Positions 1,504 to 39,473 of a DNA stretch of 64,000 nucleotides are shown here, piece by piece. This stretch comes from Candidatus Dadabacteria bacterium CSP1-2 (GTDB taxonomy: Bacteria > Desulfobacterota_D > UBA1144 > Nemesobacterales > CSP1-2). Position numbers and translations under genes: made by a program. Under the pieces are notes generated by a model. The model did not search any database and was not told where the DNA came from. It was given only the letters and a program-made list of their open reading frames with translations. The first letter of the stretch is position 1, and the number at the start of each line of letters is the position of its first letter. The stretch lies in the NCBI GenBank assembly GCA_001443445.1, contig LDXN01000009.1, positions 4,798 through 68,797 on the forward strand, written 5' to 3'.

Positions 1504-2925
1504 ATGAGAGTATTACTCATACAGCCCCATCAAGGTACGAACCTTGGGTTAAGTAGGGTTCTAATCACGGAACCCCTCGGACTTGAAAACGTTGCTACCC
1601 CACTCCTCGAAGACTTTCACGACGTAAGAATACTAGACCTAAGAATTGAAAACCTAAAGAAGCTTTCTGAAGAAATCTGCTACTTCGCTCCTCAAGCTGT
1701 TGGAATTAGCTGTTCGTTCACAACCGATGTATACCCTACATTAGATATAGCAAAAAATATAAAAGAGCTTAACCCAAGCACATTTGTATTCGTAGGGGGA
1801 CACCACGCATCACTTCTACCATCAGATCTTTTACAGGATCAGGTGGATGCCGTTGTAATAGGAGAAGGAGAGATTACAACAAATGAAATGATTAACGAAT
1901 TGGATCGTGGCGGAGATGTAAGCAAGGTCAAAGGGGTTATGACAAGAGAGGGCTTCATCCCTAGGGAGATTATAAGAAACCTAGATGAGATGCCACTTCC
2001 TGCAAGGCATCTTACTAAGAGGCTTAGAAGACACTATCACATAGGGTTCGACTGTCCTATGGCCTCTCTAGAGACGAGTAGAGGATGCCCATACGAGTGC
2101 AACTTTTGTAGCGTTTGGGTTTTCTATTCAAGAAAGATAAGAGGAAAATCGCCTGATAAGCTTGCCGAGGAGATAGCAAATGTAAAAGAAAAGTATATTT
2201 TCCTAACAGATGATATTGCCTTTCTCCACAAAGAACCGGCTATAAAGCTTGCTCTCAAACTCAAAGAAATGGGGGTTAAGAAGAGTTTTACATGTGAAAC
2301 AAGAGCTGATATTGTTGTCCGCCACAAAGATGTGATAGAGCTTTGGAAAGAAGTCGGTCTCGATTTTATTTTCCTTGGTCTCGAGAAGATAGATGATGAT
2401 GGGCTAAAATCAGTAAAGAAGCATACAAAAGCAAGCGTCAATGAAAAGGCGCTCGACTTAGTGAAGTCACTCGGAATAAGACCTATGGCTACGTTCATAG
2501 TTGATCCTGAATGGGAAGAAGAAGACTTTGAGAAGCTAAAGAATTATGTAATTAAGCATAAACTATCTACACCCTCATTCACAATCCTTACCCCTCTTCC
2601 AGGAACCGAGATTTACGATGAAAGAAAGAATGATCTTGTAACACTAAACTATCAACTCTTTGATCTACTTCATGTCGTTCTTCCTACAAAACTTCCTCTT
2701 CGTGAATTCTATGCAAGATTCGCTGACCTCTGTCATCAGGGACATAAAAACACAAAACTAGGCTGGGAATTTGTTAATAAGGTTACAATGGGAATGATAC
2801 ATGGAAACCCCTGGGCCGCTGTTAGAATATTTAACGTTGCTAGAATGATGAGAAATCCTGAAACCTATCTCGACGCTCATAAATACCTAGAAGAAGCTCC
2901 ATCGCTTCCTAGCCTCCAGTCCTGA
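1504..2925 (+). CDS. B12-binding-domain radical SAM enzyme, tandem paralogue (copy 2)
   Basis: 473-aa ORF, collinear with copy 1 and roughly 60% identical by eye. Same GCPYECNFC motif. GGAGG lies 6 nt upstream of the ATG, 16 nt after the copy 1 stop. Confidence 0.8.
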   Translation: MRVLLIQPHQGTNLGLSRVLITEPLGLENVATPLLEDFHDVRILDLRIENLKKLSEEICYFAPQAVGISCSFTTDVYPTLDIAKNIKELNPSTFVFVGGHHASLLPSDLLQDQVDAVVIGEGEITTNEMINELDRGGDVSKVKGVMTREGFIPREIIRNLDEMPLPARHLTKRLRRHYHIGFDCPMASLETSRGCPYECNFCSVWVFYSRKIRGKSPDKLAEEIANVKEKYIFLTDDIAFLHKEPAIKLALKLKEMGVKKSFTCETRADIVVRHKDVIELWKEVGLDFIFLGLEKIDDDGLKSVKKHTKASVNEKALDLVKSLGIRPMATFIVDPEWEEEDFEKLKNYVIKHKLSTPSFTILTPLPGTEIYDERKNDLVTLNYQLFDLLHVVLPTKLPLREFYARFADLCHQGHKNTKLGWEFVNKVTMGMIHGNPWAAVRIFNVARMMRNPETYLDAHKYLEEAPSLPSLQS

Positions 2926-19598: not shown

Positions 19599-22500
19599 TT
19601 ACTCTTTAACAGGGGTAGGAACGGGTATTTCCGGCGCTATGATTTCTACATCTACATCCCTATACATAGGCAGCCCGGTGCCAGCGGGTATTAATCTTCC
19701 CATAATCACATTTTCTTTTAGTCCGCGAAGACTATCCACCTTTCCTTCACAAGCCGCCTCTGTAAGTACCCTTGTAGTTTCCTGGAATGACGCTGCGGAA
19801 AGCCAGCTATCAGTGCTGAGAGAGGCCCTAGTGATACCAAGAAGAAGTGGCTCTGCTGTGGCCGGTTTTCCGCCCTGAGAGGTAACCCTTTCATTCTCTT
19901 CAAAGAAGATAATCCTTTCAACTGGTTCTCCAACAAGGAATGTTGTATCACCCGGATCCTTAACTCTCACGCGCTTTAACATCTGCCTTACTATAATCTC
20001 TATGTGTTTATCATTAATCTTAACCCCCTGGAGCCTGTAGACCTGTTGTATTTCGTCTACTAGATATCTCGCAAGGGCCTTCTCACCACGAATTCTCAGT
20101 ACATCATGAGGATTTACAGCGCCATCAACAAGCTGGTCTCCAGCCTTCACACGTTCGCCATCTCTAACTAGCACATGCTTTCCTCTTGGTACAAGGTAGT
20201 CCTTCGCTTCACCAATATCTGGAGTTACAACCATCTTTCTCTTTCCCTTTGAATCCTTTCCAAAGGATACGATTCCATCAATCTCACTCACTATCGCAGG
20301 ATCTCTAGGAAGCCTTGCTTCAAAGAGCTCTGCTACCCTTGGCAGTCCTCCAGTGATGTCCTTGGTCTTAGCCGTTTCTCTTGGAATCTTTGCAAATACA
20401 TCCCCTCCATGAACCATATCACCTTCGTTCTTTTCAATAATCGCCCCAACTGGAAGGAGATACTGGGCTGCCTTTCCATGTTTGTCGGTAACGACTATGG
20501 TAGGATGTAAATCGGGATTTTTCGATTCAACAACCACCTTTTTAAAAATTCCTGTTACCTCGTCCACCTGCTCCTTCATGCTTATACCCTCTTCAAGGTC
20601 CTGGAAGCTTACACGCCCATCCACCTCTGAGATAAATGGAGTGGTGTATGGATCCCACTCAGCAAGAAGCGATCCCCTTTTTATTTGATCACCCTCTTCA
20701 ACCCTCAACTTCGCTCCGAGAACAAGTGGATACCTTTCACGCTCGTATCCCATCTCATCCACTATAGCTAGAATTCCAGTACGATTTATTACAACGAGTC
20801 TTCCCTCGTTATTCCTCACTGTCCTAACACCGATAAGCTTTACAACACCCTCGTGTCTGCTCTCAAGTGTACTTTCTGCAACCCTCTGACTAGCAGCACC
20901 ACCTATATGGAAGGTTCTCATAGTAAGCTGGGTGCCCGGCTCCCCAATAGACTGGGCTGCTATAATCCCTACCGATTCTCCGATATTTACCAGAGCTCCT
21001 CTTGCAAGGTCTCTTCCATGGCAAAGCACGCACACACCTTGACGGGCCTCGCAAGTAAGAACAGACCTTATTTTTAACTCCGTAACGCTTCCCGCCTCGT
21101 CGATAGCGTTCGCGGCCTGCTCGTCTATCTCTTCGCTTGCCCTTACAATAATCTTTCTAGTTACAGGATCTCTAATGTCTTCAAGCACAACACGACCTAG
21201 GATTCTCTCTCCTATCCTATCTATTATCTCTCCACCTTCTATAAGTGCCCCAACTGTGATCCCATCAATCGTACCGCAGTCAAATTCCGTTATGGTTGCA
21301 TCTTGAGCAACATCAATCAACCTTCTAGTAAGGTATCCCGCATTTGCAGTTTTTAAGGCTGTATCAGCAAGCCCCTTTCTAGCTCCATGTGTTGAGATGA
21401 AGTACTGAAGCACTGTGAGGCCCTCACGAAAGTTAGATGTAATTGGCGTTTCAATAATCTCCCCTGAGGGCTTAGCCATAAGACCCCTCATCCCAGCGAG
21501 CTGGCGAACCTGGGTTTGGCTTCCTCTCGCACCTGAATCCACCATCATATAGATTGGGTTTGTGCTTGGAGCTTGGATCTCAGCCTCATTTTCGTCTTTT
21601 AAAATATCAATAGATAATTCCTTAAGCATCTCCTGAGCGATTTCTTCGCTCGTCTTAGCCCATATATCTATAACCTTGTTGTACCTTTCACCATCGGTTA
21701 TGAGCCCCTGAGAATATTGTGTTTGAACCTTTACTACCTCGTTATAAGCCTTATTTATTAGCTGCTCCTTTTTCTTTGGAATCTTCATATCATCAATTGA
21801 GATTGAAATCCCTGCTTTGGTCGAAAATTGAAACCCGAGCGTCCTCAAACGGTCTGCGAGTATAACTGTGCTCTTTCCACCGGCAACTCTAAAGCAGCTA
21901 TCTACTAGTTCCTCGATAGCACGTTTTGTCATCACCTTGTTCACTAGTTCAAAAGCAACCTCTCTTGGCATGATCTCGTAAAGCAGTATTCTGCCAACGG
22001 TAGTTTCATGCATCTTTTCATCAATTCTTACGCGTATCTTAGCATGAATGCCAACCTCATTTAAATCATAAGCCATCCTAACCTCTTCAATTGATGAAAA
22101 GGCCTTACCCTCTCCTTTCTCGAAGGGAACCTCTCTCGTCATATAATAAATACCAAGCACTATATCCTGCGTAGGAAGTATTATTGGTTTTCCGTGCGCT
22201 GGTGAGAGAATATTATTGGTTGACATAATAAGGGCCCTGCATTCTGTTTGGGCTTCAACAGAAAGCGGTACATGTACAGCCATCTGGTCTCCATCAAAGT
22301 CTGCGTTGTAAGCAGGGCATACAAGGGGATGTATTTGAATAGCTTTATCTTCAATAAGTTTTGGTTCAAAAGCCTGGATGCTTAGGCGATGAAGAGTTGG
22401 AGCACGATTTAGTAGCACAGGATGCTCCTGCACAACCTCATCAAGTGCATCCCAGACAACTGGTGCTTCTTGCTCGACAAGCTTTTTTGCAATTTTTATT

Positions 22501-23675
22501 GTCTGTGCCTTACCCCATTTCTCTAATTTTTGATATATAAAAGGTCTAAAAAGCTCAAGTGCCATCTGCTTTGGTAAACCACACTGATGGAGTCTCAGCT
22601 CAGGACCAATCACGATCACAGAGCGTCCTGAATAATCCACCCTTTTCCCAAGAAGGTTCTGACGGAACCTCCCTTGCTTTCCTTTTATAATGTCACTTAG
22701 ACTTTTTAGTGGACGGTGATTGTGAGCTAGGACAGGTCTCCCGCGCCGTCCGTTTTCAAATAGGGCATCTACAGCCTCTTGAAGCATCCTTTTTTCATTT
22801 CTAACAATGATATCAGGCGCCCCAAGCTCTAGTAATTTTCTTAGTCTGTTATTCCTATTTATTACACGACGGTAAAGATCATTTAAATCAGAGGTAGCAA
22901 ATCTGCCTCCATCTAGCGGAACAAGGGGTCTCAAGTCAGGAGGAAGTATAGGGATTTTTGTTAGAATCATCCACTCGGCTCGGTTTCCAGATTGTCTAAA
23001 GGCTTCAACAATCCTGAGCCTCTTAGCGATCCTAGCCCTCTTTATTTGAGATGTAGTATCCTTCATCTCTAACCTAAGATGTTCTGAGAGTTCGACAAGG
23101 TCTATTTTCTTAAGCATCTCCCTAACCGTTTCAGCCCCCATTCCAACCTTAAAAGTGGGTCCGTATTCCTCAAGTAATTTTCTGTACTTCTCTTCACTGA
23201 GAACCTCTCCAAATTTCAGTTGTGTTCCACCTGGATCTACAACTACATATGCCTCATAGTATAAAGCCCTTTCTAATTCCTTTAGCGTCATATCCAAAAG
23301 CATTCCTATTCTGCTTGGGATGCTTCTCAAAAACCAGATATGAGCAACCGGTGAAGAAAGCTCTATATGCCCCATCCTTTCACGCCTTACTTTGCTCGAT
23401 ATAACCTCTACGCCACATTTCTCACAGGTATGCCCCCTATGTTTAAGCCTTCTATATTTTCCGCAAAGACACTCATAATCCTTTACTGGACCAAATATCT
23501 TAGCGCAGAATAGACCGCTCCTTTCCGGTTTGAACGTTCTATAGTTAATTGTCTCTGGCTTTTTTACCTCACCTGAAGACCAATCCTTGATCTTATCAGG
23601 CGAAGCAATAGCAATCTTCACAGAAGAGTAGTCCGAAGGGTTCTTCGGTTTTTCAAAGAGGGTATCTATATCCAC
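19599..23675 (-). CDS. rpoC: DNA-directed RNA polymerase subunit beta'
   Basis: 1358 aa, unsplit, with NADFDGDQM and N-terminal Zn-binding cysteines. Confidence 0.97.
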
Positions 23676-23677
23676 TT

Positions 23678-26600
23678 TTACCTTCCTCCCTTTTGTTTTT
23701 GTAATCCTACTTTTCCATTCCCGCCTTCCTCAATAAGGTCTATATCAAGTGCAAGGGCTTGAAGCTCTTTTACTAGAACCTTGAAAGACTCTGGAAGCCC
23801 AGGTTCAAAATTCATATCGCCCTTTACGACTGAATCGAATATTCTAGTTCTCCCGATTACATCATCGGATTTCACCGTGAGAAATTCCTGAAGTGTGTAA
23901 GCGGCTCCGTACGCTTCGAGTGCCCAGACCTCCATCTCTCCAAGCCTCTGCCCCCCAAAATGGGCTTTGCCACCAAGGGGCTGCTGTGTAACGAGAGAAT
24001 AGGGTCCAATAGCCCTTGCATGAATCTTGTCTTCTACAAGATGATGGAGCTTAAGCATATACATAACACCTACAGTTACCCTTTGATCAAACGGCTCACC
24101 TGTGCGTCCATCAAAGAGTATCGTTTTCCCATCCTCCGGGAGCCCGGTGATTTTAAGCATCTCCTTTACTTCCCCTTCAGTTGCGCCGTCAAACACAGGA
24201 GACTCAATAGGTACCCCTTCTTTTAGTCTCTTCGTGAGTTCAACTACCTCTTCATCCTTTAATTCGTCAATAAATCGCCTAATCCCCTTAGAGTCATAAA
24301 TTTCCTTAAGCTTTCTCCTAAGTGATCCTGGGCTAAACTCCTGCTCAATATACTCATTTAGCTGTTGACCAAGCTCCTTTGCTGCCCAGCCCAGATGCGT
24401 CTCTAGAATCTGTCCTACGTTCATCCTTGAGGGAACACCAAGCGGATTAAGCACCATATCAACTGGGATTCCATCAGGAAGAAAGGGCATATCCTCTTCA
24501 GATAGTATCTTCGATATAACGCCCTTATTTCCGTGTCGTCCTGCCATCTTGTCTCCTACTTGGAGCTTCCTTAGTACTGCGACATGAACCTTCACTACCT
24601 TTAGCACCCCAGGAGGAAGTTCATCAGGTCGGGTCAGCTTGTCTATTTTATTGTTATAGACCATCTTTACTAAATCAATTTGTTCAAGAGTCTTTTCAAT
24701 CGCTATTTTAACCTCGGTCTCTACCTTCTCTCCCTTTTCAACACTGATATCACCTAACTTTTCAAATGGTATAGGCTGAAGATCTTCTTCGGTTATCTTT
24801 TCACCCTTCTTAATCACCATTTTTCTATTTACCGTTAACCTTCCTGCAGCTACTTTGCCCACTAGGAGGGGTCTTATTCTTTCAATTGCACCTTCTTTCA
24901 AGATCTTTATTTCGTCATCCCTGTCTTGTTTAAGACGCGCTACCTCAAAATCCTCTATACTCTTTGCCCTCTCGTCTTTATCTACCATTCTCGATGTTAG
25001 CATCTTTACATCAATTACAGTCCCGTATACCCCAGGATTCGCCCTAAGGGAGGTATCTTTTACATCACCTGCCTTATCTCCAAATATAGCCCTAAGAAGC
25101 CTTTCTTCAGGTGAAAGTTGGGTTTCTCCCTTTGGAGAAATCTTACCAACAAGTATATCTCCAGGCTTTACCTCAGCCCCAATTCTTATTATTCCACTTT
25201 CATCCAGATCCTTAAGCGTATCCTCGCCCACATTGGGAATGTCCCTGGTGATTTCCTCACGCCCAAGCTTTGTCTCGCGTGATATACACTCAAACTCTTC
25301 AATATGGATAGATGTGAATTTATCATCCCTTACAATCCTCTCGCTTATAAGGATCGCATCTTCAAAGTTGTATCCCCCCCATGGCATAAAAGCTACGACC
25401 ACATTCTGCCCGAGAGAAAGCTCGCCGTGACTTGTCGAGGGACCATCTGCAATAACTTGTCCCTTTGTAACGTACTGTCCCTTTTTTACGAACGGCCTTT
25501 GATTCCAGCATGTATTCTGATTTGATCTTTGAAACTTTATCAAATTATAAATATCAACCCCAGCATCATTTCCATCACCCGTTACCCTTACGACAATTTT
25601 AGACGCATCCACATACTCCACTATACCATCCCCCTTTACAACTACTGTTATTCCTGAATCCTTAGCCACTGTCTTTTCAAGTCCTGTCCCAACTAATGGT
25701 GCGGAAGTTCGAATAAGAGGAACAGCCTGACGCTGCATGTTAGATCCCATGAGCGCTCGGTTTGCATCATCATGCTCAAGAAACGGAATAAGAGCGGCTG
25801 ATACCGAAACGAGCTGAGCCGGAGATACATCCATAAACTCAACCTTTTCGCGCTCAACCATGAAGAATTCACCTTTATGACGTGCTGATATAAGTTCAGA
25901 CTTAAAGTGCCCATCCTCATCTAAAGGTGCGTTTGCCTGAGCAATTACATATTTCTCCTCTTCAAAAGCGTTCAGATAAAAGATTTCAGAAGTTACCTTT
26001 CCGTTTTTTACAACCCTGTAAGGAGCTTGAATAAAACCATCATCGTTCACCTTCGCATAGGTACTTAAGCTAGATATAAGACCAATGTTTGGACCCTCTG
26101 GCGTTTCAATTGGGCATATTCTTCCATAATGTGAAGCGTGAACGTCACGGACCTCAAACCCTGCACGCTCCCTTGTAAGCCCACCAGGCCCAAGTGCGCT
26201 TAGCCTTCTTTTATGTGTAATCTCAGATAACGGGTTCGTTTGATCCATAAATTGAGAAAGTTGTCCTGTTGCAAAGAACTCCTTTACAACTGAGATAACA
26301 GTCTTTGGTATAAGAAGTTCACTTGGCATCAGGTTCTCTACAGCTTGATACCCCATCTTCTCCCTTACTGACCTTGCAAGCCTCTCTAGCCCATGATAAA
26401 AGCGTTCCTCTACGAGTTCTCCAACTGTTCGAACCCTTCTATTACCTAGATGGTCAATATCATCAATCGAACCCCTAGCACCTTTGAGGTTAAGGAGATA
26501 CTTAACTGTCCCCATTATGTCTTCCTTCGTTAATGTAAGATCGTCTTCAGAGACTTCTCGATTTAGTTTATAATTAACCTTAATCCGGCCTACCTTAGAA

Positions 26601-27814
26601 AGCCTATATGTATCGGGATTAAAAAAGAGGTTATAGAAGAAGTTTTCAGCAACCCCTAGGGTCGGCGGGTCAGTGGGTCTAAACTTTTTATAGATTTCTC
26701 TAATCGCATCCTCGGAGGTTTTAGTCTTATCAGCAAGAATGGTGTTTCTAAGTGATGCACTTATAGCGATGTTATCTATATAAAAAACCTTAAACTCCTT
26801 TATCCCTCGAGCCCTAATCTCTTGAAGTTTTTCCTCTTTTATCTCCTCGTTGAAATTAAGTAATACCTCCCCAGTCTTTTGATACACAATGTCATCTGCA
26901 CAATGTCTGCCTATTATGTCAATTATTTGAATGGGAATTCTTTCAAGCTTTGCCTGACGGAGTTTATCAATTAGGTTTCCTACAAACTTTTTTCCCTTTT
27001 TTACTATAACCTCACCAGTCTTTGGATCCACTATGTCTACACTAGATTTTTGATAAGAAAGAACCTCCGGGTCAACGCTCTTTTTTATCCCATCTGTTTC
27101 AAAATAGATGGTTTCAGTTGGATAGAAATAAAGCATTATCTCTTTGGTGGTATAGCCAAGTGCCTTGAGAAGCACAGTGACAAGAAACTTTTTTTTTCTA
27201 TCGATTCTAACATGCAAGTGGTCCTTAGAATCGAATTCAAAATCAAGCCACCTTCCATCCTGTGGAACAATCCTGGCTGAGTAAGAGGTCTTTCCCACAA
27301 TCTGGTCCTTATCTTTACCCTGATTGAAGAATACCCCCGGTGAGCGGTGTAGCTGATTGACTATAACCCTCTCGGTGCCATTTATGATGAATGCGCCATT
27401 TGGGGTCATTAGCGGAATCTCGCCGAAGTAAACCTCCTGCTCCTTTACATCCCTTATCGTTCGCTCACTACCAGAGCCTGATTGAGTATCCCATATCACT
27501 AGGCGAAAAATCACATAGAGCGGAGCGACGTATGTGTAACCCTTCATCCGGCACTCATTAGTTTCGTGCTTTGGCTTATCAAGACGGTAGCTAACATATT
27601 CAAGCGATGCGCGGCCATTGTAATCCTCTATAGGAAATACAGTCTTCAATGCACGGAGAAGTCCAATATCCCTTCTTTGATCAGGACTTACATCTCTTTG
27701 AAGAAACTCGTTATACGATTTTATTTGAACCTCAAGAAGATGCGGTATTTCGAGAACAGACGGAATCTTTGAAAAACTTTTTCTTTTATAAGTTTCTACT
27801 CCCTCGAAATTCAC
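23678..27814 (-). CDS. rpoB: DNA-directed RNA polymerase subunit beta
   Basis: The ORF is open to 27901, but its first 29 codons translate the heptad repeat. A GTG at 27814, preceded by a G-rich stretch gggggtagagataag (no clean SD), gives [18 protein letters not shown]..., the usual RpoB opening. Confidence 0.93.
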
Positions 27815-27842
27815 CTTATCTCTACCCCCTTTTTGTTTATTT

Positions 27843-27912
27843 TTCGTGGCTTGTAATTCGTGGATAGTGGCTCGTAATTCGATACACGATTCTCGATTCA
27901 CGAACCACGGTC
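27843..27912. repeat. Heptad array (CG family), 10 units in register
   Basis: The units read ttcgtgg cttgtaa ttcgtgg atagtgg ctcgtaa ttcgata cacgatt ctcgatt cacgaac cacggtc. CG occupies positions 3-4 in 8 of 10 units, and the halves are inverted. Confidence 0.85.
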
Positions 27913-28944: not shown

Positions 28945-29038
28945 TGATGCACGATGCATGAGGTTTTTATCTGTATCCTTTATCCTGCATCCTGTATCTT
29001 GCATCCTGCATCCTGCATCCTGCATCTTGTATCTCATG
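28945..29038. repeat. Heptad array (TCCTGCA / TGATGCA family) filling the rplA-rplJ spacer
   Basis: tgatgca cgatgca tgagg.. is followed by atctgta tccttta tcctgca tcctgta tcttgca tcctgca tcctgca tcctgca tcttgta tctcatg. That is 10 units in register, and the rplA stop lies in the last unit. Confidence 0.85.
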
Positions 29039-29756
29039 CTGCTATCTCAAATCCCTTTAGCTCATCGCGGATGCTTAAGGGATCAACCTTTATTCCCGGA
29101 CCCATTGTAGTAGAAAGCACAACCTTTTTGATAAATGTCCCTTTCGACGAAGATGGCTTCATCCTTGTGATTGTATCCATAAGCACAAGAAAGTTCTCTC
29201 TAAGCTTATCTGAACCAAAAGAGGCCTTTCCAACCGGGGTATGAATAACACCACCCTTATCATTTTTTATCTCGATTCTCCCCGCTTTTGCTTCCTTAAC
29301 CGCTTTTCCTATCTCGAAAGTTACAGTCCCAACCTTCGGGCTTGGCATAAGCCCTCTAGGACCGAGTATCTTACCAAGCTTTCCCACCAGGTTCATTACA
29401 TCGGGGGTTGCAATAGTAACCTCAAAATCAAGCCAATTTTCTTTGGAAATCTTCTCAATTAAATCTTCAGCACCGACGTAATCTGCACCTGTCTCCTGAG
29501 CCTCTTTCACCTTGTCACCTTTTGCAAAAACCAATACCCTCACACTTCTTCCTGTCCCGTGTGGAAGAACAATAGCTCCTCTAATCTGCTGGTCAGCATG
29601 ACGTGGGTCAATGCCGAGTTTGACTGCAGCCTCTACAGTTTCATCAAATTTCGCAGTTTTTGTTTCTTCAACTATCTTTATCGCTTCCCGAACTTCATAC
29701 AGTTTTGTAGAATCAATCTTTTTTTTAGCTTCTAAGTACCTTTTCCCTCTCTCCAT
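29034..29756 (-). CDS. rplA: 50S ribosomal protein L1
   Basis: The track ORF starts at a TTG (29771). The ATG at 29756 follows GGAGG plus 6 nt and gives [15 protein letters not shown], the usual L1 opening. Confidence 0.93.
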
Positions 29757-29777
29757 TTTTGCCTCCTTCAAATAAAT

Positions 29778-29847
29778 TCAGAAGTCAGGAGTCAGCAGCC
29801 AGAAGTTTTCTTCCTTTCTTCTGAATTCTGACTCCTGAATTCTTCTC
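29778..29847. repeat. Heptad array (TCAGAAG / TCTGAAT family), 10 units in register
   Basis: The units read tcagaag tcaggag tcagcag ccagaag ttttctt cctttct tctgaat tctgact cctgaat tcttctc. tcaggagtcag (29786-29796) is the exact complement of ctgactcctga (29828-29838). Confidence 0.85.
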
Positions 29848-29848
29848 A

Positions 29849-30265
29849 CTATACGACCTCAATACCCATACTCCTTGCCGTTCCCTCAACAATCTTAACT
29901 GCGGCTTCTATATCATCAGAATTTAGATCAGGCAGCTTTATATTAGCTATTTCTCTTACCTGTGACCTTGTTACCTTACCTACCTTTACCCTTGATGCTG
30001 TAACTGAGCCCTTATCCAATCCTGAAGCCTTTTTTAACAAATATGACACCGGAGGAGTTTTAATTATAAACGAAAATGATCTATCTGCATAAACTGTCAC
30101 TATAACAGGAAATATTCCATCCATCTTTGATGTCTGTGCATTAAAAGCCTTACAGAATTCCATTATATTTACACCCTTTTGTCCAAGAGCCGGTCCTACA
30201 GGAGGAGAAGGCGTTGCCTTCCCAGCAGGAACTAAGAGCTTTACTTCTCCAATTACCTTTTTCAT
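29849..30265 (-). CDS. rplK: 50S ribosomal protein L11
   Basis: 138 aa with the motif [17 protein letters not shown]. Confidence 0.95.
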
Positions 30266-30266
30266 C

Positions 30267-30824
30267 CTAAATTCTCTCCACTTGAGTGAAATCCAATTCT
30301 ATTGGTGTTGTCCTACCAAATATTGTTACCAGAACCTGAACCTTGCCCTTTTCAGGTTTGACTTCGTCAATAAGACCCGAGAAATTTACAAAAGGACCAT
30401 CTGTGACTCTAACAGTTTCTCCCTTCTCAAATGTAACCCTAGGTTTTGGTTTCAGGGTTCCTTCTTCTATTTGCCTCTTTATCTTAATAACCTCTTTTTC
30501 ATCTATACTAGGAACGGAATCAGGGTCAATCTTTCCTTCTTTCAGCTTACCACCAACAAACCCTATCACCTTTGGTATGTTTCTAATAAAATGCCAACTT
30601 CTCTCGTTAAGCTCCATGTTGACTAGGATGTACCCTGGGAAAAATCTCCTAAATGAGGTTTTCTTTCTGCCACCTTTTACTGGCTCGATGATGGTTTCAG
30701 TAGGCACTAAAACCTCATGAACAGATACCTCCATCCCTTCTAGTTTGACCCTCTCTTCAATTAAGGCCTTTACACGATCCTCAAAGCCTGTATTTATGTG
30801 AACCACGTACCACCTATAAGCCAT
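30267..30824 (-). CDS. nusG: Transcription termination/antitermination factor NusG
   Basis: 185 aa with NGN and KOW domains, in the conserved secE-nusG-rplK position. Confidence 0.93.
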
Positions 30825-30847
30825 ACCTATTTATTTCTCCGTCTCTC

Positions 30848-31051
30848 CTAACTCAAAACGTACTTTACTACTAATGAGAACAAGAAGTCTATTGCTCCCA
30901 AAAATGATGCAAGAATAATAGAAATAACGATAACAGCCCCGGTCGAACGAATTGATTCCCTAAGGGATGGCCATGATATGCGCTTTGCTTCAACCTCAAT
31001 ATCCTTAAAAAACTGAACAAGCATAGCTATTAATTCATTTATTTTTTCCAT
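30848..31051 (-). CDS. secE: Preprotein translocase subunit SecE
   Basis: 67 aa with a single C-terminal TM helix, in the conserved position. Confidence 0.85.
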   Translation of the reverse strand: MEKINELIAMLVQFFKDIEVEAKRISWPSLRESIRSTGAVIVISIILASFLGAIDFLFSLVVKYVLS

Positions 31052-31153
31052 TTCTCCTCAGTTATAGCCATTAAGGCAATTTGACGTTATTCATTAGTCG
31101 CTTATTTCCCAAAAATTATTTCATCAAGTATCATAGAGCAAACACATAATTTA

Positions 31154-31227
31154 CAGGGCAGGAGGGACTCGAACCCCCAACCGCTGGATTTGGAGTCCAG
31201 TGCTCTACCAAATTGAGCTACTGCCCT
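31154..31227 (-). tRNA. tRNA-Trp (anticodon CCA)
   Basis: Reverse complement is agggcagtagctcaatttggtagagcactggactCCAaatccagcggttgggggttcgagtccctcctgccctg. The acceptor stem agggcag/ctgccct and the cloverleaf fold by hand. Usual position upstream of secE. Confidence 0.9.
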
Positions 31228-31235
31228 TAATAAAA

Positions 31236-31316
31236 TGATGCGTGATACAAGATTCATGATGCACATTGCCTCTTGTATCCTGCATACCGCATCTTTCCAT
31301 CCTGAATCCTGTATCT
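31236..31316. repeat. Heptad array (TGATGCA / TCCTGCA family) between rpmG and tRNA-Trp
   Basis: tgatgcg tgataca agattca tgatgca cattgcc is followed by tcttgta tcctgca taccgca tctttcc atcctga atcctgt. Same word family as 28945-29038. Confidence 0.8.
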
Positions 31317-31475
31317 TTACTTTGTCTCCTTATGTAAGGTATGGCGTCTACACCATCTGCAGTATTTCTTGAGCTCCATTTTATCCCTATGGGTTTGTCT
31401 GTTCTTTCTAGTAGAATAATTCCTTCTTTTACAGTCACTGCAAGCAAGTGCAATAATTACAGTGTTATCTCCCAT
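31317..31475 (-). CDS. rpmG: 50S ribosomal protein L33
   Basis: Hand-translated as [52 protein letters not shown] (52 aa, CxxC...CxxC). Missing from the ORF track. Track ORF 31205-31453 is an out-of-frame artefact. Confidence 0.9.
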
Positions 31476-31486
31476 TTAGGACCCCA

Positions 31487-32671
31487 CTACTGAGTGATTT
31501 TAGTAACTACTCCTGCTCCTACTGTCCTTCCCCCTTCTCTTATTGCAAACCTTAACCCCTCCTCCATCGCCACTGGCGCTATCAACTCCACATCCATGTT
31601 CACATTATCCCCTGGCATCACCATCTCTACCCCATCTGGCAGCTTTATATTCCCTGTCACATCTGTTGTCCTTAGGTAAAACTGCGGCCTATACCCTGTG
31701 AAAAATGGTGTGTGCCTTCCCCCCTCCTCCTTCGTTAATACATACACCTCTGCCTTAAGCCTCGTATGCGGCGTTATACTCCCCGGCGCTGCCAATACCT
31801 GCCCCCTCTCCACCTCATCCTTCCCTACCCCCCTTAATAACACCCCTACGTTATCCCCTGCTACCGAATCATCTAGTATCTTCCTGAACATCTCTAAACT
31901 AGTCGCTACTGTCTTCCTTGTCTCCTTAAACCCTACTATCTCTACCTCCTCCCCTGCCTTTATCTTCCCCCTCTCTACCCTTCCTGTCACCACTGTTCCC
32001 CTTCCCGATATGGTGAATACGTCTTCTATTGCCATCAAAAATGGCTTGTCTACCTCCCTCACCGGCTCTGGTACGTACTTGTCTACTGCGCTCATTAATT
32101 CTAGTACCTGCTTCTCTGCCACTGCATCACCCTCTAATGCCTTTAGCGCACTTACTCTCACTATCGGTATCTCATCCCCTGGAAACCCATATTTGGTTAA
32201 TAATTCCCTTACTTCTAGCTCCACTAAATCTAATAGCTCAGGATCATCCATCGCATCTACCTTGTTTAGGCATACCACTATGCATGGCACACCTACCTGC
32301 CTTGCCAATAATATATGCTCTCTTGTCTGGGGCATTGGCCCATCTGGTGCGCTCACTACTAGTATTGCCCCATCCATCTGTGCTGCCCCGGTTATCATGT
32401 TCTTTACGTAGTCTGCATGCCCAGGACAGTCTACATGCGCATAGTGCCTCTTGTCTGTCTCATACTCCACGTGTGCTATGTTTATTGTTATCCCCCTCTC
32501 CTTCTCCTCTGGCGCCTTGTCTATCTCATCAAATGGGACAAACTTTGCCTTGCCTTGCTTCTCTAGTATCTTCGTTATTGCCGCTGTAAGTGTTGTCTTG
32601 CCATGATCTACGTGCCCTATTGTCCCTATGTTTAAATGCGGCTTCTTCCTCTCAAACCTCTGCTTCGCCAT
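31487..32671 (-). CDS. tuf: Elongation factor Tu
   Basis: 394 aa with [15 protein letters not shown] and NKVD motifs. Codon usage is highly atypical (see findings). Confidence 0.97.
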
Positions 32672-32701
32672 AGATTTATTACCTCCTAATATCTTGTTTA
32701 G

Positions 32702-32862
32702 CCACTAACGAACAACAAGCACGAATCACTAAATTCCGATTCCCAAGAATTCAGAAGTCGGAATCCAGAATCCAGAAGATAAAACTCTAACTTCTGAATT
32801 CTGATTTCTGGCTCCTGACTTCTTATTTGAGATTTGAAATTTGTTATTTGGAATTTGTAGTT
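32702..32862. repeat. 23 consecutive heptads in one register (three word families) filling the fusA-tuf spacer
   Basis: The units read ccactaa cgaacaa caagcac gaatcac taaattc cgattcc caagaat tcagaag tcggaat ccagaat ccagaag ataaaac tctaact tctgaat tctgatt tctggct cctgact tcttatt tgagatt tgaaatt tgttatt tggaatt tgtagtt. Confidence 0.9.
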
Positions 32863-32865
32863 TCA

Positions 32866-34947
32866 TTACGCCCCTTTTACTCTGGCCTTAATCCCTTGAG
32901 AAAGCATCTCAGGAACATCGGCATAGTGTGAGAACTCCATAGTAAACGTACCTCTTCCCTCTGTCATAGATCTTAAATGAGTGGCATAACCAAACATCTC
33001 AGAAAGAGGCACCTCCGATTTTATAGCTTGCATACCGCCTCGTAGCTCCGTCCCAATAATTCTTCCTCTTCTCGAACTTAAATCCCCAATTACAGATCCC
33101 ATAAACTCTTCGGGTACAACAACCTCAACACTCATCAAGGGTTCAAGAATTACAGGAGAAGCACGTCTAACCGCATCCTTAAACGCCATTGAAGCGGCGA
33201 TCTTAAATGCTATCTCAGAAGAATCCACCTCGTGATAAGATCCATCGTAGAGTCTCACACCAAAATCAACAACAGGATATCCTGCGATAACACCAGTCAC
33301 CATTGCCTCTTCAATACCCTTTTCAACAGCCGGTATATACTCTTTTGGAATTGCTCCACCCTTAATCTCATCTATAAACTCAAAACCCGATCCTCGTTCT
33401 CTAGGTCCTAATCTTATTTTCACATGACCGTATTGGCCACGCCCACCGGTCTGGCGGATAAACTTTCCCTCAGCCTGAGAAGAGGCTGTGATTGTTTCTT
33501 TATATGCTACCTGAGGCTTTCCAACATTTGCATCAACCTTAAATTCACGTTTTAGACGATCAACTATTATTTCTAAATGAAGCTCTCCCATACCGGCAAT
33601 AATAGTCTGACTGGTCTCTTCGTCGAACTTAACCTTGAATGATGGGTCCTCTATTGCGAGCTTTCCAAGCGATATACCAAGTTTTTCCTGATCGGCTTTA
33701 GTTTTTGGCTCAATTGCAACAGAAATAACAGGTTCAGGAAACTGAAGGCTTTCAAGAATTATAGGCTTATTTTCATCTGAAAGTGTATCACCTGTAATTG
33801 TATTCCTAAGACCAACCGCTGCAGCAATATCTCCTGCGCTTATCTCCTTGATCTCCTCACGTTTGTTTGCGTGCATCCTGAGAAGCCTTCCGATTTTCTC
33901 CCTACTACCCTTTCTTGAGTTATAGACGGATGTCCCTGAGGCAAGCTTTCCCGAATATACCCTTAAATATGTAAGCTGACCGACAAATGGGTCTGTCATT
34001 ATTTTAAAAGCAAGCGCAGAGAATGGCTCGGTTTCTTTTGGATACCTAAACTCCTCCTGATCAGTATATGGGTTTATCCCCTTTACAGGAGGCAAATCTA
34101 TCGGCGAGGGAAAAAAATCTACAACAGCATCAAGAAGGGTTTGAACGCCCTTGTTTTTAAATGCTGAACCACAAAGCACCGGGACTGCATTTATTACGAT
34201 AGTAGACTTTCTTAACACGCTTTTTATCTTTTCTTCTGTAATGGGCTTCCCGTTAAGGTAGTTTCCCATTACCTCTTCATCAAAATCTGAAAGAGATTCT
34301 AAGAGTTTCTCCCTACCCAAAATAGCTTGATCTTTTACCTGATCTGGTATTTCGATAAACTCATATTTAGATCCTAGAGAGTCCTCCTCCCAGACTACTA
34401 ATTTCATCTGAATAAGATCAATTATCCCTTTGAATTCATCATCATCAATCCACGGAATTTGAATAAAAATAGGATTAGAGTTTAATTTATTCCTGATCTG
34501 GTCAATAGTTTTAAAGAAATCAGCCCCCACTCGGTCCATCTTATTAACAAAAGCAATCCTTGGAACGTTGTAGCGGTCAGCCTGTCGCCATACTGTTTCA
34601 GATTGTGGTTCAACACCGCCGACACCATCGAAAACCACAACAGCTCCATCAAGTACCTTTAAAGACCTTTCAACCTCGATCGTAAAATCCACGTGTCCTG
34701 GAGTATCAATAATGTTGATTCTATGGTCACGCCAGAAACAAGCGGTAGTTGCTGCAGTAATGGTGATACCCCGCTCCCTTTCTTGTTCCATCCAGTCCAT
34801 TATGGCTGTGCCTTCATGAACCTCGCCAATCTTATATGTCAGACCAGTGTAATAAAGGATGCGCTCTGTCGTTGTGGTCTTACCGGCATCTATATGGGCA
34901 ATAATCCCAATATTTCTAGTCTTTTCTATAGTTACGTTACTACTCAA
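32866..34947 (-). CDS. fusA: Elongation factor G
   Basis: 693 aa with [17 protein letters not shown] and NKMD motifs. Confidence 0.97.
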
Positions 34948-39398: not shown

Positions 39399-39473
39399 TG
39401 GTGGGCGGTACTGGATTTGAACCAGTGACTTCCACCGTGTGAGGATGGCACTCTACCGCTGAGTTAACCGCCC
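39399..39473 (-). tRNA. tRNA-Val (anticodon CAC), CCA encoded
   Basis: Reverse complement is gggcggttaactcagcggtagagtgccatcctCACacggtggaagtcactggttcaaatccagtaccgcccacca. The acceptor gggcggt/accgccc and the D, anticodon and T stems all pair. Confidence 0.9.

What the first reader, a model, noticed from the sequence alone, without database searches (positions are those of the whole stretch)
31487..32671. tuf uses almost only purine-ending codons, unlike its operon neighbours
By hand reading of the minus strand, 23 of 24 Ile codons are ATA. Every Arg codon I read is AGG or AGA, with no CGN. Gly is about 34 GGG/GGA against 4 GGC/GGT. Pro, Ala, Val and Thr are overwhelmingly NNA/NNG. A 60-nt sample (31501-31560) is 75% purine on the coding strand, against 50% for a sample of fusA (32881-32940). 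The adjacent rplK, rpsL, fusA and rpmG use CCT, GCT, GGT, GTT and ATT freely. One side effect is that the antisense strand is nearly stop-free, which explains track ORFs of 237 and 186 aa. Possible explanations are xenologous replacement of tuf from a donor with AGG/ATA/GGG-rich usage, selection for a polypurine low-structure mRNA, or a chimeric assembly.
Basis: seen in the sequence. Interest (0 to 1): 0.65.

Follow-up and report, generated by a model that had tools for sequence, protein, structure and literature searches.

The report
EF-Tu gene avoids pyrimidine-ending codons
The gene for elongation factor Tu in this Dadabacteria genome ends 90% of its freely variable codons in A or G, while about 30 ribosomal-protein, EF-G and RNA-polymerase genes beside it sit at about 48%; this is real, inherited and actively maintained, not foreign DNA or an assembly error, and its cause is not settled.

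Summary
Observation confirmed. tuf (31487-32671, minus strand) has a purine at 157 of 174 four-fold third positions (0.90). Ordinary genes give 0.47, fusA+rpoBC+nusG 0.47 and 27 r-protein genes 0.49 (p=1e-28). ATA is 23/24 Ile and AGR is 23/23 Arg.

The bias is not horizontal transfer. EF-Tu and EF-G identity matrices agree across 8 syntenic relatives. The tuf-only bias is clade-wide (0.60-0.90; one hot-spring-type branch 0.46), with fusA flat at 0.39-0.46. Four-fold sites have turned over (48-57% differ), mostly A<->G, so purines are actively kept.

Assembly does not cause it either, although tuf is probably a two-copy repeat. Contigs diverge exactly after the stop codon into rpsJ or rpmG contexts, k-mer depth is 1.4-2x, and a closed relative has canonical tufA and tufB. 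The window's fusA-tuf-rpmG join is therefore doubtful.

Two layers exist. AAG, AGG, ATA and AGR preferences show a weak expression gradient, which is ordinary codon adaptation. Pyrimidine avoidance at four-fold sites is tuf-only and runs against the other highly expressed genes, which slightly favour T-ending codons.

The same tuf-only purine excess recurs in 14 of 116 unrelated genomes. Best guess: selection on the nucleic acid itself (purine loading of the most abundant mRNA). The benefit is unproven.

The parts
31487..32671 (-). tuf CDS (EF-Tu, 394 aa). It carries the whole anomaly: 0.90 purine at four-fold third positions. It is also the unit of a two-copy repeat.
   Evidence: Searches give the ORF, codon counts and family match. 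In four metagenomes, unitigs break exactly at 31487 and 32671, and the tuf pieces carry 1.4-2x the depth of the fusA contig.
32682..32687 (-). Shine-Dalgarno sequence AGGAGG, 10 nt upstream of the tuf ATG.
   Evidence: Read directly from the sequence.
32672..32865 (.). fusA-tuf spacer, 195 nt. It holds heptamer tandem arrays and a 13-nt perfect inverted repeat (32746-32758 / 32790-32802). It is not purine-biased and is not part of the tuf repeat.
   Evidence: Relatives have only 25-50 nt here. Contigs from elsewhere share 32823-32861.
32866..34947 (-). fusA (EF-G). It is a co-operonic control with ordinary codon usage (R4 0.43).
31476..31486 (-). Junction after the tuf stop codon. From this point conspecific contigs continue either into rpmG (as in the window) or into rpsJ.
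   Evidence: 8 rpmG against 10 rpsJ contexts. The rpsJ context appears as a loose end at 31487 in runs X1-X4.
31317..31475 (-). rpmG (L33), the first gene of the tufB-type downstream context. Its codon usage is ordinary.
   Evidence: Pfam L33 in relatives.
31154..31227 (-). tRNA-Trp(CCA) between rpmG and secE, as in the canonical tufB-secE region.
31698..32411 (+). Antisense ORF of 237 aa. It is a by-product of the lack of pyrimidines at tuf third positions.
   Evidence: no family. tuf third positions diverge freely between relatives, which excludes a conserved antisense protein.
32029..32589 (+). Antisense ORF of 186 aa, a by-product for the same reason.

Best explanation
tuf is an authentic, vertically inherited EF-Tu gene of a Candidatus Dadabacteria genome. 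It is present in two copies that are kept identical over exactly the coding sequence (concerted evolution). Its synonymous sites carry two superimposed signals.

(a) Ordinary codon adaptation. This covers the preferences for AAG, AGG and ATA and for AGR over CGN, which the other translation genes share significantly but weakly; GAG and GGG lean the same way but their shifts are not significant.

(b) A tuf-only, actively maintained exclusion of pyrimidines wherever a purine is synonymous. It is indifferent to which purine is used in NYR codons and indifferent to C versus T where a pyrimidine is obligatory.

This pattern points to selection on the purine/pyrimidine identity of the nucleic acid itself rather than on tRNA matching. 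In other words, it looks like purine loading of the sense strand of the cell's most heavily expressed mRNA.

The most likely benefit (inferred, not shown) is an mRNA that pairs poorly with itself and with other RNAs. That would keep it maximally accessible to ribosomes and would allow EF-Tu to be made in several-fold excess over the genes co-transcribed with it.

Shown: the pattern, its gene specificity, its inheritance, its active maintenance and its effect on predicted folding in this gene.
Inferred: that selection acts at the RNA level, and what the benefit is.
For: - Gene specificity. R at four-fold sites is 0.90 in tuf, 0.47 in ordinary genes, 0.47 in fusA+rpoBC+nusG and 0.49 in 27 r-protein genes.
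- Direction opposite to the other highly expressed genes. They slightly raise T-ending codons (GCT .38 against .34, CTT .57 against .49), while tuf has GCT 0/30 and GTT 1/46.
- No tRNA-type signature. C among two-fold Y codons is 0.38 in tuf, 0.35 in ordinary genes and 0.25 in r-protein genes (tuf against r-proteins p = 0.04), far from the strong C preference expected of codon adaptation. A:G among NYR codons is 0.68, against 0.69-0.72 elsewhere. Ser uses the purine-rich AGY 5 times against TCR 2 and TCY 0, although AGY is read by a G34 tRNA.
- Active maintenance. Between the window and relatives at 93-94% protein identity, 48-57% of tuf four-fold sites differ (fusA about 60%). In tuf, 51 of 74 and 46 of 92 of those changes are A<->G, whereas in fusA all classes are about equal. 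Within the species, 12 of 19 third-position polymorphisms are A<->G.
- Clade-wide and tuf-only. tuf R4 is 0.90, 0.89, 0.88, 0.85, 0.84, 0.75, 0.70, 0.68, 0.68, 0.60 and 0.46, with fusA at 0.39-0.46.
- Vertical descent. The EF-Tu and EF-G identity matrices are congruent.
- Physical effect. Whole-gene MFE is -254 kcal/mol, against -315 to -335 for recodings with the neighbours' codon usage (120-nt windows, z = +3.8), and against -386 for an R3->Y3 swap at equal GC.
- Published rationale. ORF-wide mRNA structure anticorrelates with translation efficiency within operons (rho = -0.76; PMC5318159). Avoidance of RNA-RNA interactions raises protein yield, and purine loading has been proposed for that role (PMC5028192).
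- Recurrence in unrelated phyla. tuf minus pooled r-protein R4 exceeds 0.2 in 14 of 116 genomes and is below -0.2 in 1 of 116.
Against: - The absolute predicted folding of tuf (-21.1 kcal/mol per 120 nt) lies inside the range of its neighbours (-19.5 to -28.7), because the gene is more GC-rich (0.49 against 0.40-0.46).
- Using A instead of G in NRR codons would lower folding much further (-194 kcal/mol). Low structure alone therefore does not explain the codon set.
- In GC-rich lineages with the same tuf-only bias the purine is G (G3 up to 0.90), and predicted folding is not reduced (for example -39.3 against -37.1).
- No expression or structure-probing data exist for this organism. The metatranscriptome contigs were too sparse to use.
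- Only translation and transcription genes could serve as the highly expressed set. Other very abundant proteins (GroEL, Csp, HU, porins) were not sampled.
- The amino-acid composition of EF-Tu shows no clear purine-driven shift. Amino acids with obligate pyrimidine-ending codons make up 0.168, against 0.179 +/- 0.013 in the background.
Confidence: 0.42

Rival explanations
1. Ordinary translational selection. NNR codons are read by two tRNA species (U34 and C34) and NNY codons by one (G34). In a slow grower with weak selection, only the most expressed gene would show the preference.
For: - Component (a) shows an expression gradient. From ordinary genes to fusA+rpoBC+nusG to r-proteins to tuf: AAG .45/.60/.56/.93; AGG among AGR .35/.52/.51/.87; ATA .35/.38/.44/.96; AGR .64/.72/.72/1.00.
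- A tRNA-Val(CAC) in the window shows that C34 tRNAs exist for four-fold boxes.
- G is preferred exactly in the boxes where a dedicated C34 tRNA plus an xm5U-type U34 tRNA is usual. This last point rests on my own knowledge.
- tuf is the most codon-biased gene in many bacteria, for example C. sporogenes at 0.83.
Against: - At four-fold sites there is no gradient at all.47/.47/.49, then .90. The ln-odds shift in tuf is about 36 times that of r-proteins (at least 13 times on my rough confidence interval), against 4-10 times for component (a). These ratios are my own arithmetic on the counts.
- The other highly expressed genes move slightly toward T-ending codons, the opposite of tuf.
- There is no C preference in two-fold Y codons, and Ser prefers AGY, which is read by a G34 tRNA.
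- The same tuf-against-r-protein discordance recurs in unrelated phyla with very different GC content.
Confidence: 0.2
2. Avoidance of a factor that recognises pyrimidines in RNA. Candidates are Rho, which loads on C-rich, G-poor, YC-containing RNA, or a pyrimidine-specific endoribonuclease. Under this idea the tuf transcript escapes premature termination or cleavage when translation falters.
For: - YC dinucleotides occur at 3.5 per 100 nt in tuf against 5.7-9.4 in neighbours. C/G is 0.41 against 0.55-0.73. Windows of 78 nt with C>G make up 0% in tuf against up to 23% in neighbours.
- The same holds in the GC-rich cases: L086 has YC 7.2 against 14.4 and C>G windows 0 against 0.37, and L052, L047, L011, L061 and L089 behave alike. 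This idea therefore fits lineages where the folding idea fails.
Against: - These measures are arithmetic consequences of purine loading, so they cannot separate cause from effect.
- The idea does not fit C. sporogenes (C/G 0.76 against 0.61).
- Some lineages have C-rich tuf genes (L012, L043, L149).
- A heavily translated mRNA is already shielded from Rho (my own knowledge).
- Neither a rho gene nor a relevant RNase was examined here.
Confidence: 0.12
3. Xenologous replacement: tuf was imported from a donor with AGG/ATA/GGG-rich codon usage.
For: Composition is atypical relative to the neighbours. AGR and ATA preference recalls thermophile codon usage (my own knowledge). One related branch is of hot-spring type (HR37-like).
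Against: - The EF-Tu and EF-G identity matrices are congruent.
- All close EF-Tu relatives are from the same clade.
- The bias is shared clade-wide and is graded.
- Synonymous sites are saturated between lineages while purines are retained, so any import would have to be ancient and the bias then maintained by selection anyway.
- In the roughly 240 loci examined, no neighbouring gene or pooled gene class approaches 0.9 purine-ending codons, so they offer no candidate donor. The hot-spring-type branch actually lacks the four-fold component (0.46).
Confidence: 0.03
4. Transcription-associated mutation bias in a very heavily transcribed gene.
For: The gene is presumably the most transcribed protein gene. 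Coding-strand G>C skew is strongest here (GC skew -0.41 on the + strand at 31-32 kb).
Against: - Deamination on the non-template strand gives C->T, so T3 should rise. Instead T3 at four-fold sites falls from about 0.35-0.5 to about 0.05.
- The r-protein and rpoBC operons are also heavily transcribed and show nothing.
- The changes required are Y->R transversions.
Confidence: 0.04
5. Assembly chimera or artefact, or a conserved antisense gene, produces the pattern.
For: tuf sits at a repeat-induced assembly junction. Long antisense ORFs exist.
Against: - The identical protein, with near-identical DNA, was assembled independently on more than 30 contigs from many samples and pipelines, in both contexts.
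- The bias spans the whole CDS evenly.
- tuf third positions vary freely between relatives, and the antisense ORFs hit no family. Together these exclude a conserved antisense protein.
Confidence: 0.01

Closest known systems
Purine loading of mRNA-synonymous strands (Szybalski's rule; Lao & Forsdyke 2000, as cited in PMC5028192)
   Same: There is an excess of purines on the sense strand, achieved at synonymous positions. It is independent of codon family and lowers RNA self-pairing and cross-pairing in this gene.
   Different: Purine loading is described as a genome-wide trait that is strongest in thermophiles. Here it is confined to one gene, reaches 0.90 at four-fold sites, and the neighbours in the same operon are unaffected.
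Translationally selected codon bias of highly expressed genes (tuf and r-protein genes as the classical reference set)
   Same: tuf is the most biased gene. Component (a) (AAG, AGG, ATA, AGR) is shared in weaker form by r-protein, EF-G and RNAP genes.
   Different: The purine/pyrimidine component is absent from, and partly opposite to, the r-protein genes. There is no C preference in two-fold Y codons.
Concerted evolution of tufA/tufB by gene conversion (PMC5485169; PMC6053082; canonical operon contexts in PMC6735719)
   Same: There are two contexts (fusA-tuf-rpsJ and tuf-rpmG-tRNA-Trp-secE-nusG...). Identity is confined to the CDS and ends exactly at the stop codon. A closed relative has two identical copies.
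   Different: Gene conversion explains why both copies carry the bias. It does not explain why the bias exists. GC-biased conversion would raise G and C alike, but C3 is depleted.
ORF-wide mRNA structure setting translation efficiency within operons (Burkhardt et al. 2017, PMC5318159)
   Same: It gives a reason why one ORF in a polycistronic mRNA might be kept unstructured along its whole length. The anomaly starts and stops at the ORF boundaries.
   Different: That work was measured in E. coli and is not tied to purine content. Here only predictions are available, and tuf's absolute predicted folding is not extreme.

Membership tests
EF-Tu (tuf), translational GTPase | Full-length match to the EF-Tu equivalog model, with the GTPase domain and domains 2 and 3 | tested here: met
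   TIGR00485 scores 734.8 bits (cutoff 522.4) over residues 1-393. PF00009, PF03144 and PF03143 are on record. The motifs [13 protein letters not shown] and NKVD are visible in the translation.
Duplicated tufA/tufB under concerted evolution | Two genomic contexts carry the same CDS, and identity ends at the CDS boundaries | tested here: met
   Among 19 conspecific contigs plus the window, 10 continue into rpsJ and 8 into rpmG, diverging at the first base after TAG. Unitigs break at 31487 and 32671, and depth is 1.4-2x that of fusA. A closed relative has two identical copies in the canonical contexts.
Duplicated tufA/tufB under concerted evolution | A second upstream context (tRNA-Thr/Tyr/Gly/Thr cluster) in this species | tested here: inconclusive
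   All 14 or more conspecific contigs that have an upstream flank show fusA. The tRNA cluster is seen only in relatives. An exact-protein look-up would miss contigs that stop at the branch point.
Horizontally acquired (xenologous) gene | Phylogenetic placement incongruent with neighbouring vertically inherited genes | tested here: not met
   The EF-Tu and EF-G pairwise identity matrices give the same grouping over 8 syntenic relatives. This is identity-based and not a full tree.
Horizontally acquired (xenologous) gene | Atypical composition that is recent and decaying toward the host's | tested here: not met
   Four-fold sites are 48-70% diverged between lineages, yet purines are retained. The bias is strongest in derived branches.
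Translationally selected codon usage | The same preferred codons appear, more weakly, in r-protein, EF-G and RNAP genes | tested here: not met
   It is significantly met for AAG, AGG, ATA and AGR (p = 0.0001-0.03); GAG and GGG lean the same way without significance. It is not met for R against Y at four-fold sites (.47/.47/.49/.90; r-proteins against ordinary genes p = 0.26). The T-ending trend is opposite.
Translationally selected codon usage | C preferred over T in two-fold pyrimidine-ending codons | tested here: not met
   C fraction is 0.38 in tuf, 0.35 in ordinary genes and 0.25 in r-proteins.
Purine loading of the sense strand | Purine excess at synonymous sites in all codon families, with no preference between the two purines or the two pyrimidines beyond the background | tested here: met
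   It holds for all four-fold families, Ile, Arg and Ser (AGY). The A:G ratio in NYR codons and the C:T ratio in NAY codons stay close to the background. One exception is the extra G preference in NRR codons, which I assign to component (a).
Purine loading of the sense strand | Genome-wide occurrence | tested here: not met
   Only tuf shows it among about 80 genes of this species that I examined.

The most novel reading that the evidence does not exclude
A recurrent, cross-phylum selective pressure, specific to tuf among the translation and transcription genes compared, puts purines at synonymous sites of the sense strand (A in AT-rich genomes, G in GC-rich genomes, both here). It runs against the codon preferences of the r-protein genes in the same genomes. 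This would reveal an unrecognised constraint on the gene or mRNA of the cell's most abundant protein that neither tRNA matching nor simple folding energy explains.
Probability: 0.3. Interest if true: 0.75.

Novelty: new variant of a known kind. Interest (0 to 1): 0.55.

Why it matters
tuf and the r-protein genes are the textbook reference set for 'optimal' codons. Here, and in roughly one in eight of the unrelated genomes I sampled, tuf's strongest synonymous signal is orthogonal or opposite to that of the r-protein genes.

If tuf is under a separate, nucleic-acid-level constraint, three things follow:
- Codon-adaptation indices trained on sets that include tuf are distorted in such lineages.
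- There is a selectable property of very abundant mRNAs that is distinct from tRNA matching. It could be tested by synonymous recoding in culturable species such as Clostridium sporogenes.
- Composition-based HGT detectors will wrongly flag tuf.

Practically, the work also shows that the window's fusA-tuf-rpmG adjacency should not be trusted as gene order.

Tried and rejected
I reused its loci as a background set.
- The metagenome scan with the '[11 protein letters not shown]' probe showed the motif is not clade-specific. Only L142 and L179 were relatives, so the rest also served as background.
- SD-like motifs, G-runs, AAAA depletion and purine runs in tuf are by-products of codon choice. Within-amino-acid codon permutation gives |z| < 2, except AAA at z = -2.8. 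No G3-tract quadruplex motif is present.
- A conserved antisense gene is rejected.
- An amino-acid-level purine shift in EF-Tu is not significant. The R1 excess is explained by AGR usage.
- Metatranscriptome contigs were too sparse to compare expression.
- Rfam finds only tRNA-Trp in 30800-33200.
- 'Hidden stop' (ambush) reasoning was considered and rejected. R3 would add +1-frame stops after NTR codons but removes all -1-frame stops, and it cannot explain the GCN, GGN, CCN and ACN families.
- Literature searches found no earlier description of a tuf-specific purine bias. That is not proof that none exists.
Full report
**1. What is there**

The ORF at 31487-32671 on the minus strand encodes a 394-aa EF-Tu. 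It matches TIGR00485 at 734.8 bits against a cutoff of 522, and Pfam GTP_EFTU, D2 and D3 are on record. Gene order on the minus strand is rpsL-rpsG-fusA-[195-nt spacer]-tuf-rpmG-tRNA-Trp-secE-nusG-rplK-rplA-rplJ-rplL-rpoB-rpoC. The nearest EF-Tu proteins carry names such as 'Candidatus Dadabacteria bacterium CSP1-2' and 'Thermodesulfobacteriota bacterium'.

**2.

Codon counts:
- Ile: ATA 23, ATC 1, ATT 0.
- Arg: AGG 20, AGA 3, no CGN.
- Gly: GGR 32, GGY 4.
- Ala: GCR 30, GCY 0.
- Val: GTR 44, GTY 2.
- Pro: 18 against 3.
- Thr: 21 against 6.

A purine occupies 157 of 174 four-fold third positions (0.90). The comparison values are 0.47 in 29 ordinary genes of the window, 0.47 in fusA+rpoB+rpoC+nusG, and 0.49 in 27 r-protein genes of the same species (window plus the S10/spc operon on L001). 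Fisher's test gives p = 1.2e-28. All 50 other ORFs of at least 100 aa in the window lie at 0.35-0.59.

The bias is even along the gene. The pyrimidine-ending codons that remain are almost all obligate ones (Asp, Asn, His, Tyr, Phe, Cys). The long antisense ORFs are a by-product: the antisense frames have 22, 5 and 10 stops, and the ORFs match no family.

**3. It is not an assembly artefact, but tuf sits on a repeat**

The identical protein is encoded on more than 30 independently assembled contigs from JGI, ENA, NCBI and Logan. Among 19 conspecific contigs plus the window, only 22 nucleotide positions vary.

These contigs fall into two downstream contexts that diverge at the first base after the TAG stop. 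Ten continue into rpsJ and the S10 operon, and eight continue into rpmG-secE-nusG, as the window does.

In four metagenomes the Logan unitigs break exactly at 31487 and 32671. The tuf pieces carry 1.4-2 times the k-mer depth of the fusA contig, and the rpsJ context appears as a loose end at 31487.

A closed 3.1-Mb genome of a relative (87% EF-Tu identity) has two identical copies about 213 kb apart on the same strand (my arithmetic from the coordinates). One lies in tRNA-Thr/Tyr/Gly/Thr-tuf-(rpmG)-tRNA-Trp-secE...rpoBC, and the other in rpsL-rpsG-fusA-tuf-rpsJ.

So tuf is a two-copy gene homogenised over exactly its coding sequence. This is the well-known tufA/tufB situation (PMC5485169, PMC6053082, PMC6735719).

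The window's fusA-tuf-rpmG adjacency is one of two paths an assembler can take through the repeat. By analogy with the closed relative it is probably a mis-join. I could not prove this, because no tRNA-side upstream contig of this species was recovered.

None of this creates the codon bias. It only explains why both copies carry it.

**4. It is not a recent foreign gene**

For eight relatives that carry the same rpsL-rpsG-fusA-tuf block, the EF-Tu and EF-G identity matrices give the same grouping.

| Relative | EF-Tu identity to window | EF-G identity to window |
|---|---|---|
| L219 | 0.95 | 0.87 |
| L091 | 0.94 | 0.86 |
| L094 | 0.93 | 0.86 |
| L220 | 0.91 | 0.81 |
| L095 | 0.88 | 0.81 |
| L098 | 0.87 | 0.72 |
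| L222 | 0.84 | 0.72 |

The tuf-only bias is present across the clade. tuf R4 values are 0.90, 0.89, 0.88, 0.85, 0.84, 0.75, 0.70, 0.68, 0.68, 0.60 and 0.46, while fusA is 0.39-0.46 everywhere.

The key test concerns turnover. Between the window and relatives at 93-94% protein identity, tuf four-fold sites differ at 48-57%, nearly as much as fusA at 60%. In tuf, 51 of 74 and 46 of 92 of these differences are A<->G. In fusA all four classes are about equal. The synonymous sites have therefore turned over while pyrimidines stayed excluded. That indicates continuing selection or bias, not a fading import.

In the roughly 240 loci examined, no neighbouring gene or pooled gene class approaches 0.9 purine-ending codons, so they offer no candidate donor genome.

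**5. Two layers of codon bias**

Comparing ordinary genes, then fusA+rpoBC+nusG, then r-proteins, then tuf separates two components.

(a) Preferences with a weak expression gradient, which is the signature of ordinary codon adaptation:

| Preference | Ordinary | fusA+rpoBC+nusG | r-proteins | tuf |
|---|---|---|---|---|
| ATA among Ile | .35 | .38 | .44 | .96 |
| AGR among Arg | .64 | .72 | .72 | 1.00 |
| AAG among Lys | .45 | .60 | .56 | .93 |
| AGG among AGR | .35 | .52 | .51 | .87 |

For these four the r-protein shift against ordinary genes is significant (p = 0.0001-0.03). GAG (.44/.54/.48/.86) and GGG among GGR (.33/.40/.39/.78) lean the same way, but their r-protein shifts are not significant (p = 0.23 and 0.11).

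(b) Purine against pyrimidine at four-fold sites.47.47.49, then .90. There is no gradient. By my own arithmetic on the counts, the ln-odds shift of tuf is about 36 times that of r-proteins (at least 13 times on a rough confidence interval), against 4-10 times for component (a).

Family by family, the other highly expressed genes slightly increase T-ending codons relative to ordinary genes (GCT .38 against .34, GGT .30 against .26, CTT .57 against .49). tuf nearly eliminates them (GCT 0/30, GTT 1/46).

tuf shows no C-over-T preference in two-fold codons (0.38). Its A:G ratio in NYR codons (0.68) equals the background. It prefers AGY over TCR for Ser (5:2:0, against 9:14:20 in fusA).

The hot-spring-type branch (L095/L096) has layer (a) but not layer (b), so the two layers are separable in evolution.

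**6. What layer (b) does physically**

Predicted whole-gene folding:

| Version of tuf | Whole-gene MFE (kcal/mol) |
|---|---|
| Real gene | -254 |
| Recoded with the neighbours' codon usage | -315 to -335 |
| Purines at four-fold sites swapped for pyrimidines, equal GC | -386 |
| A instead of G in NRR codons | -194 |

For the recodings, 120-nt windows average -21.1 against -25.6 +/- 1.2 (z = +3.8).

Three results limit the folding idea. tuf's absolute value per 120 nt lies inside its neighbours' range, because tuf is more GC-rich. A instead of G in NRR codons would lower folding further. SD-like motifs, G-runs and AAAA depletion are by-products of codon choice.

Purine loading also halves YC dinucleotides (3.5 against 5.7-9.4 per 100 nt) and removes windows with C>G. 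These are the features that Rho uses, to my knowledge.

**7. The pattern recurs elsewhere**

I classified genes by BLAST in 132 loci. Among 116 genomes outside the clade, tuf exceeds the pooled r-protein genes by more than 0.2 in 14, and falls more than 0.2 below them in 1.

The 14 include:
- a Gemmatimonadota MAG (L086: 0.90 against 0.48);
- two Acidobacteriota (L052 and L089; L052 is 0.76 against 0.38, with fusA+rpoBC+nusG pooled at 0.28);
- Clostridium sporogenes (0.83 against 0.51);
- a betaproteobacterium;
- Fretibacterium;
- a Vicinamibacterales genome;
- a Glassbacteria MAG.

The purine is G in GC-rich genomes (G3 up to 0.90, A about 0), A in Clostridium, and both here. In the GC-rich cases predicted folding is not reduced. 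Low structure therefore cannot be the universal driver. The Rho-type features fit the GC-rich cases and the window, but not Clostridium.

**8. Interpretation**

What is shown:
- tuf is a genuine, vertically inherited EF-Tu gene.
- It is very probably present in two copies that evolve in concert. The second upstream context was not recovered in this species.
- It carries ordinary codon adaptation plus a tuf-only, actively maintained exclusion of synonymous pyrimidines.

The pattern of what is and is not preferred (R against Y yes; C against T no; A against G in NYR no; AGY for Ser) points to selection on the purine/pyrimidine nature of the nucleic acid rather than on tRNA matching.

A mutational origin is unlikely. 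Transcription-associated deamination would raise T3, and T3 is the base most depleted.

My best explanation, at about 0.4, is purine loading of the most abundant mRNA. That would keep it poorly pairing and highly translatable relative to co-transcribed genes. Published work provides the logic: ORF-wide structure predicts translation efficiency within operons (PMC5318159), and avoiding RNA-RNA interactions raises protein yield (PMC5028192).

Rivals are tRNA-based selection visible only in tuf (about 0.2), avoidance of a pyrimidine-recognising factor such as Rho (about 0.12), and minor ones. The benefit is inferred, not demonstrated, and the GC-rich cases show that the folding version is incomplete.

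**9. Novelty and limits**

Codon bias in tuf, purine loading and tuf concerted evolution are all known. A tuf-only purine bias of this strength, opposite to the r-protein trend and recurrent across phyla, did not turn up in the literature I could search. I file it as a new variant of a known kind.

Limits:
- The set of highly expressed genes was restricted to translation and transcription genes.
- There is no complete tRNA inventory.
- There are no expression or structure-probing data.
- Congruence was tested with identity matrices, not full trees.

Noticed in passing
window 28971-29033, 29778-29843, 32746-32857: Heptamer (7-nt period) tandem arrays fill several intergenic spacers of the r-protein block. 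The rplA-rplJ spacer holds (CTGYATC)x9. The rplK-rplA spacer holds (TCAGAAG)x4 facing (TTCTGAA)x3.6. The fusA-tuf spacer holds (AGAATCC), (TTCTGAA) and (ATTTGAA) arrays plus a 13-nt perfect inverted repeat. AGAATTCAGAAGT occurs 5 times in the window (at most 1 mismatch) against 0.22 expected. Contigs from other loci share 32823-32861. This looks like a small family of repeated hairpin elements.
   Followed up: partly
window 32672-32865: The fusA-tuf spacer is 195 nt here but only about 25-50 nt in related Dadabacteria (L091, L094, L095, L098, L219, L220, L222). The extra DNA is the repeat and hairpin material.
   Followed up: partly
L086:6475-7665 (Gemmatimonadota MAG JALZAQ010000068.1): An unrelated GC-rich genome has a tuf gene with G at 90% of four-fold third positions, while 16 r-protein genes beside it are at 0.48. 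This matches the window's anomaly in size, but with G only.
   Followed up: partly
L052 (Acidobacteriota MAG), L069 (Clostridium sporogenes), L047, L011, L061, L089, L032: tuf exceeds the pooled r-protein genes by 0.24-0.38 in purine-ending codons. In L052 the r-protein genes (0.38) and the pooled fusA/rpoBC/nusG class (0.28) lean the other way.
   Followed up: partly
window 32588-32591 (tuf codons 27-28): The window reads ACA-CTT (Thr-Leu). Sixteen of the 19 conspecific contigs read ACT-TTG. Each version has one pyrimidine-ending codon, in a different place.
   Followed up: yes
window 39399-39473 (-): There is a tRNA-Val(CAC). It shows that the organism has C34 tRNAs for four-fold boxes, which bears on the decoding hypothesis.
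   Followed up: no
window 75-1487 and 1504-2925 (+): Two adjacent paralogous ORFs of 470 and 473 aa have very similar N-termini (MRVLLVQPQQGT... and MRVLLIQPHQGT...). They look like a tandem duplication.
   Followed up: no
window 32866-34947, 23678-27901, 19599-23675 (-): In the longest-ORF reading, fusA starts with TTG and rpoB and rpoC with GTG. The true starts may lie further downstream: gene calls in conspecific contigs give an RpoB of 1378-1383 aa, against 1407 aa in the ORF list.
   Followed up: no
window 29500-31340: In runs X1-X3 no contig was laid on the rpmG-secE-nusG side at 97% identity or more, although the k-mer index reported 98-99% of the words of 30500-33800. In X4 a contig diverges from the window at 31154, the edge of tRNA-Trp. 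This may be strain variation or a limit of the tool.
   Followed up: no
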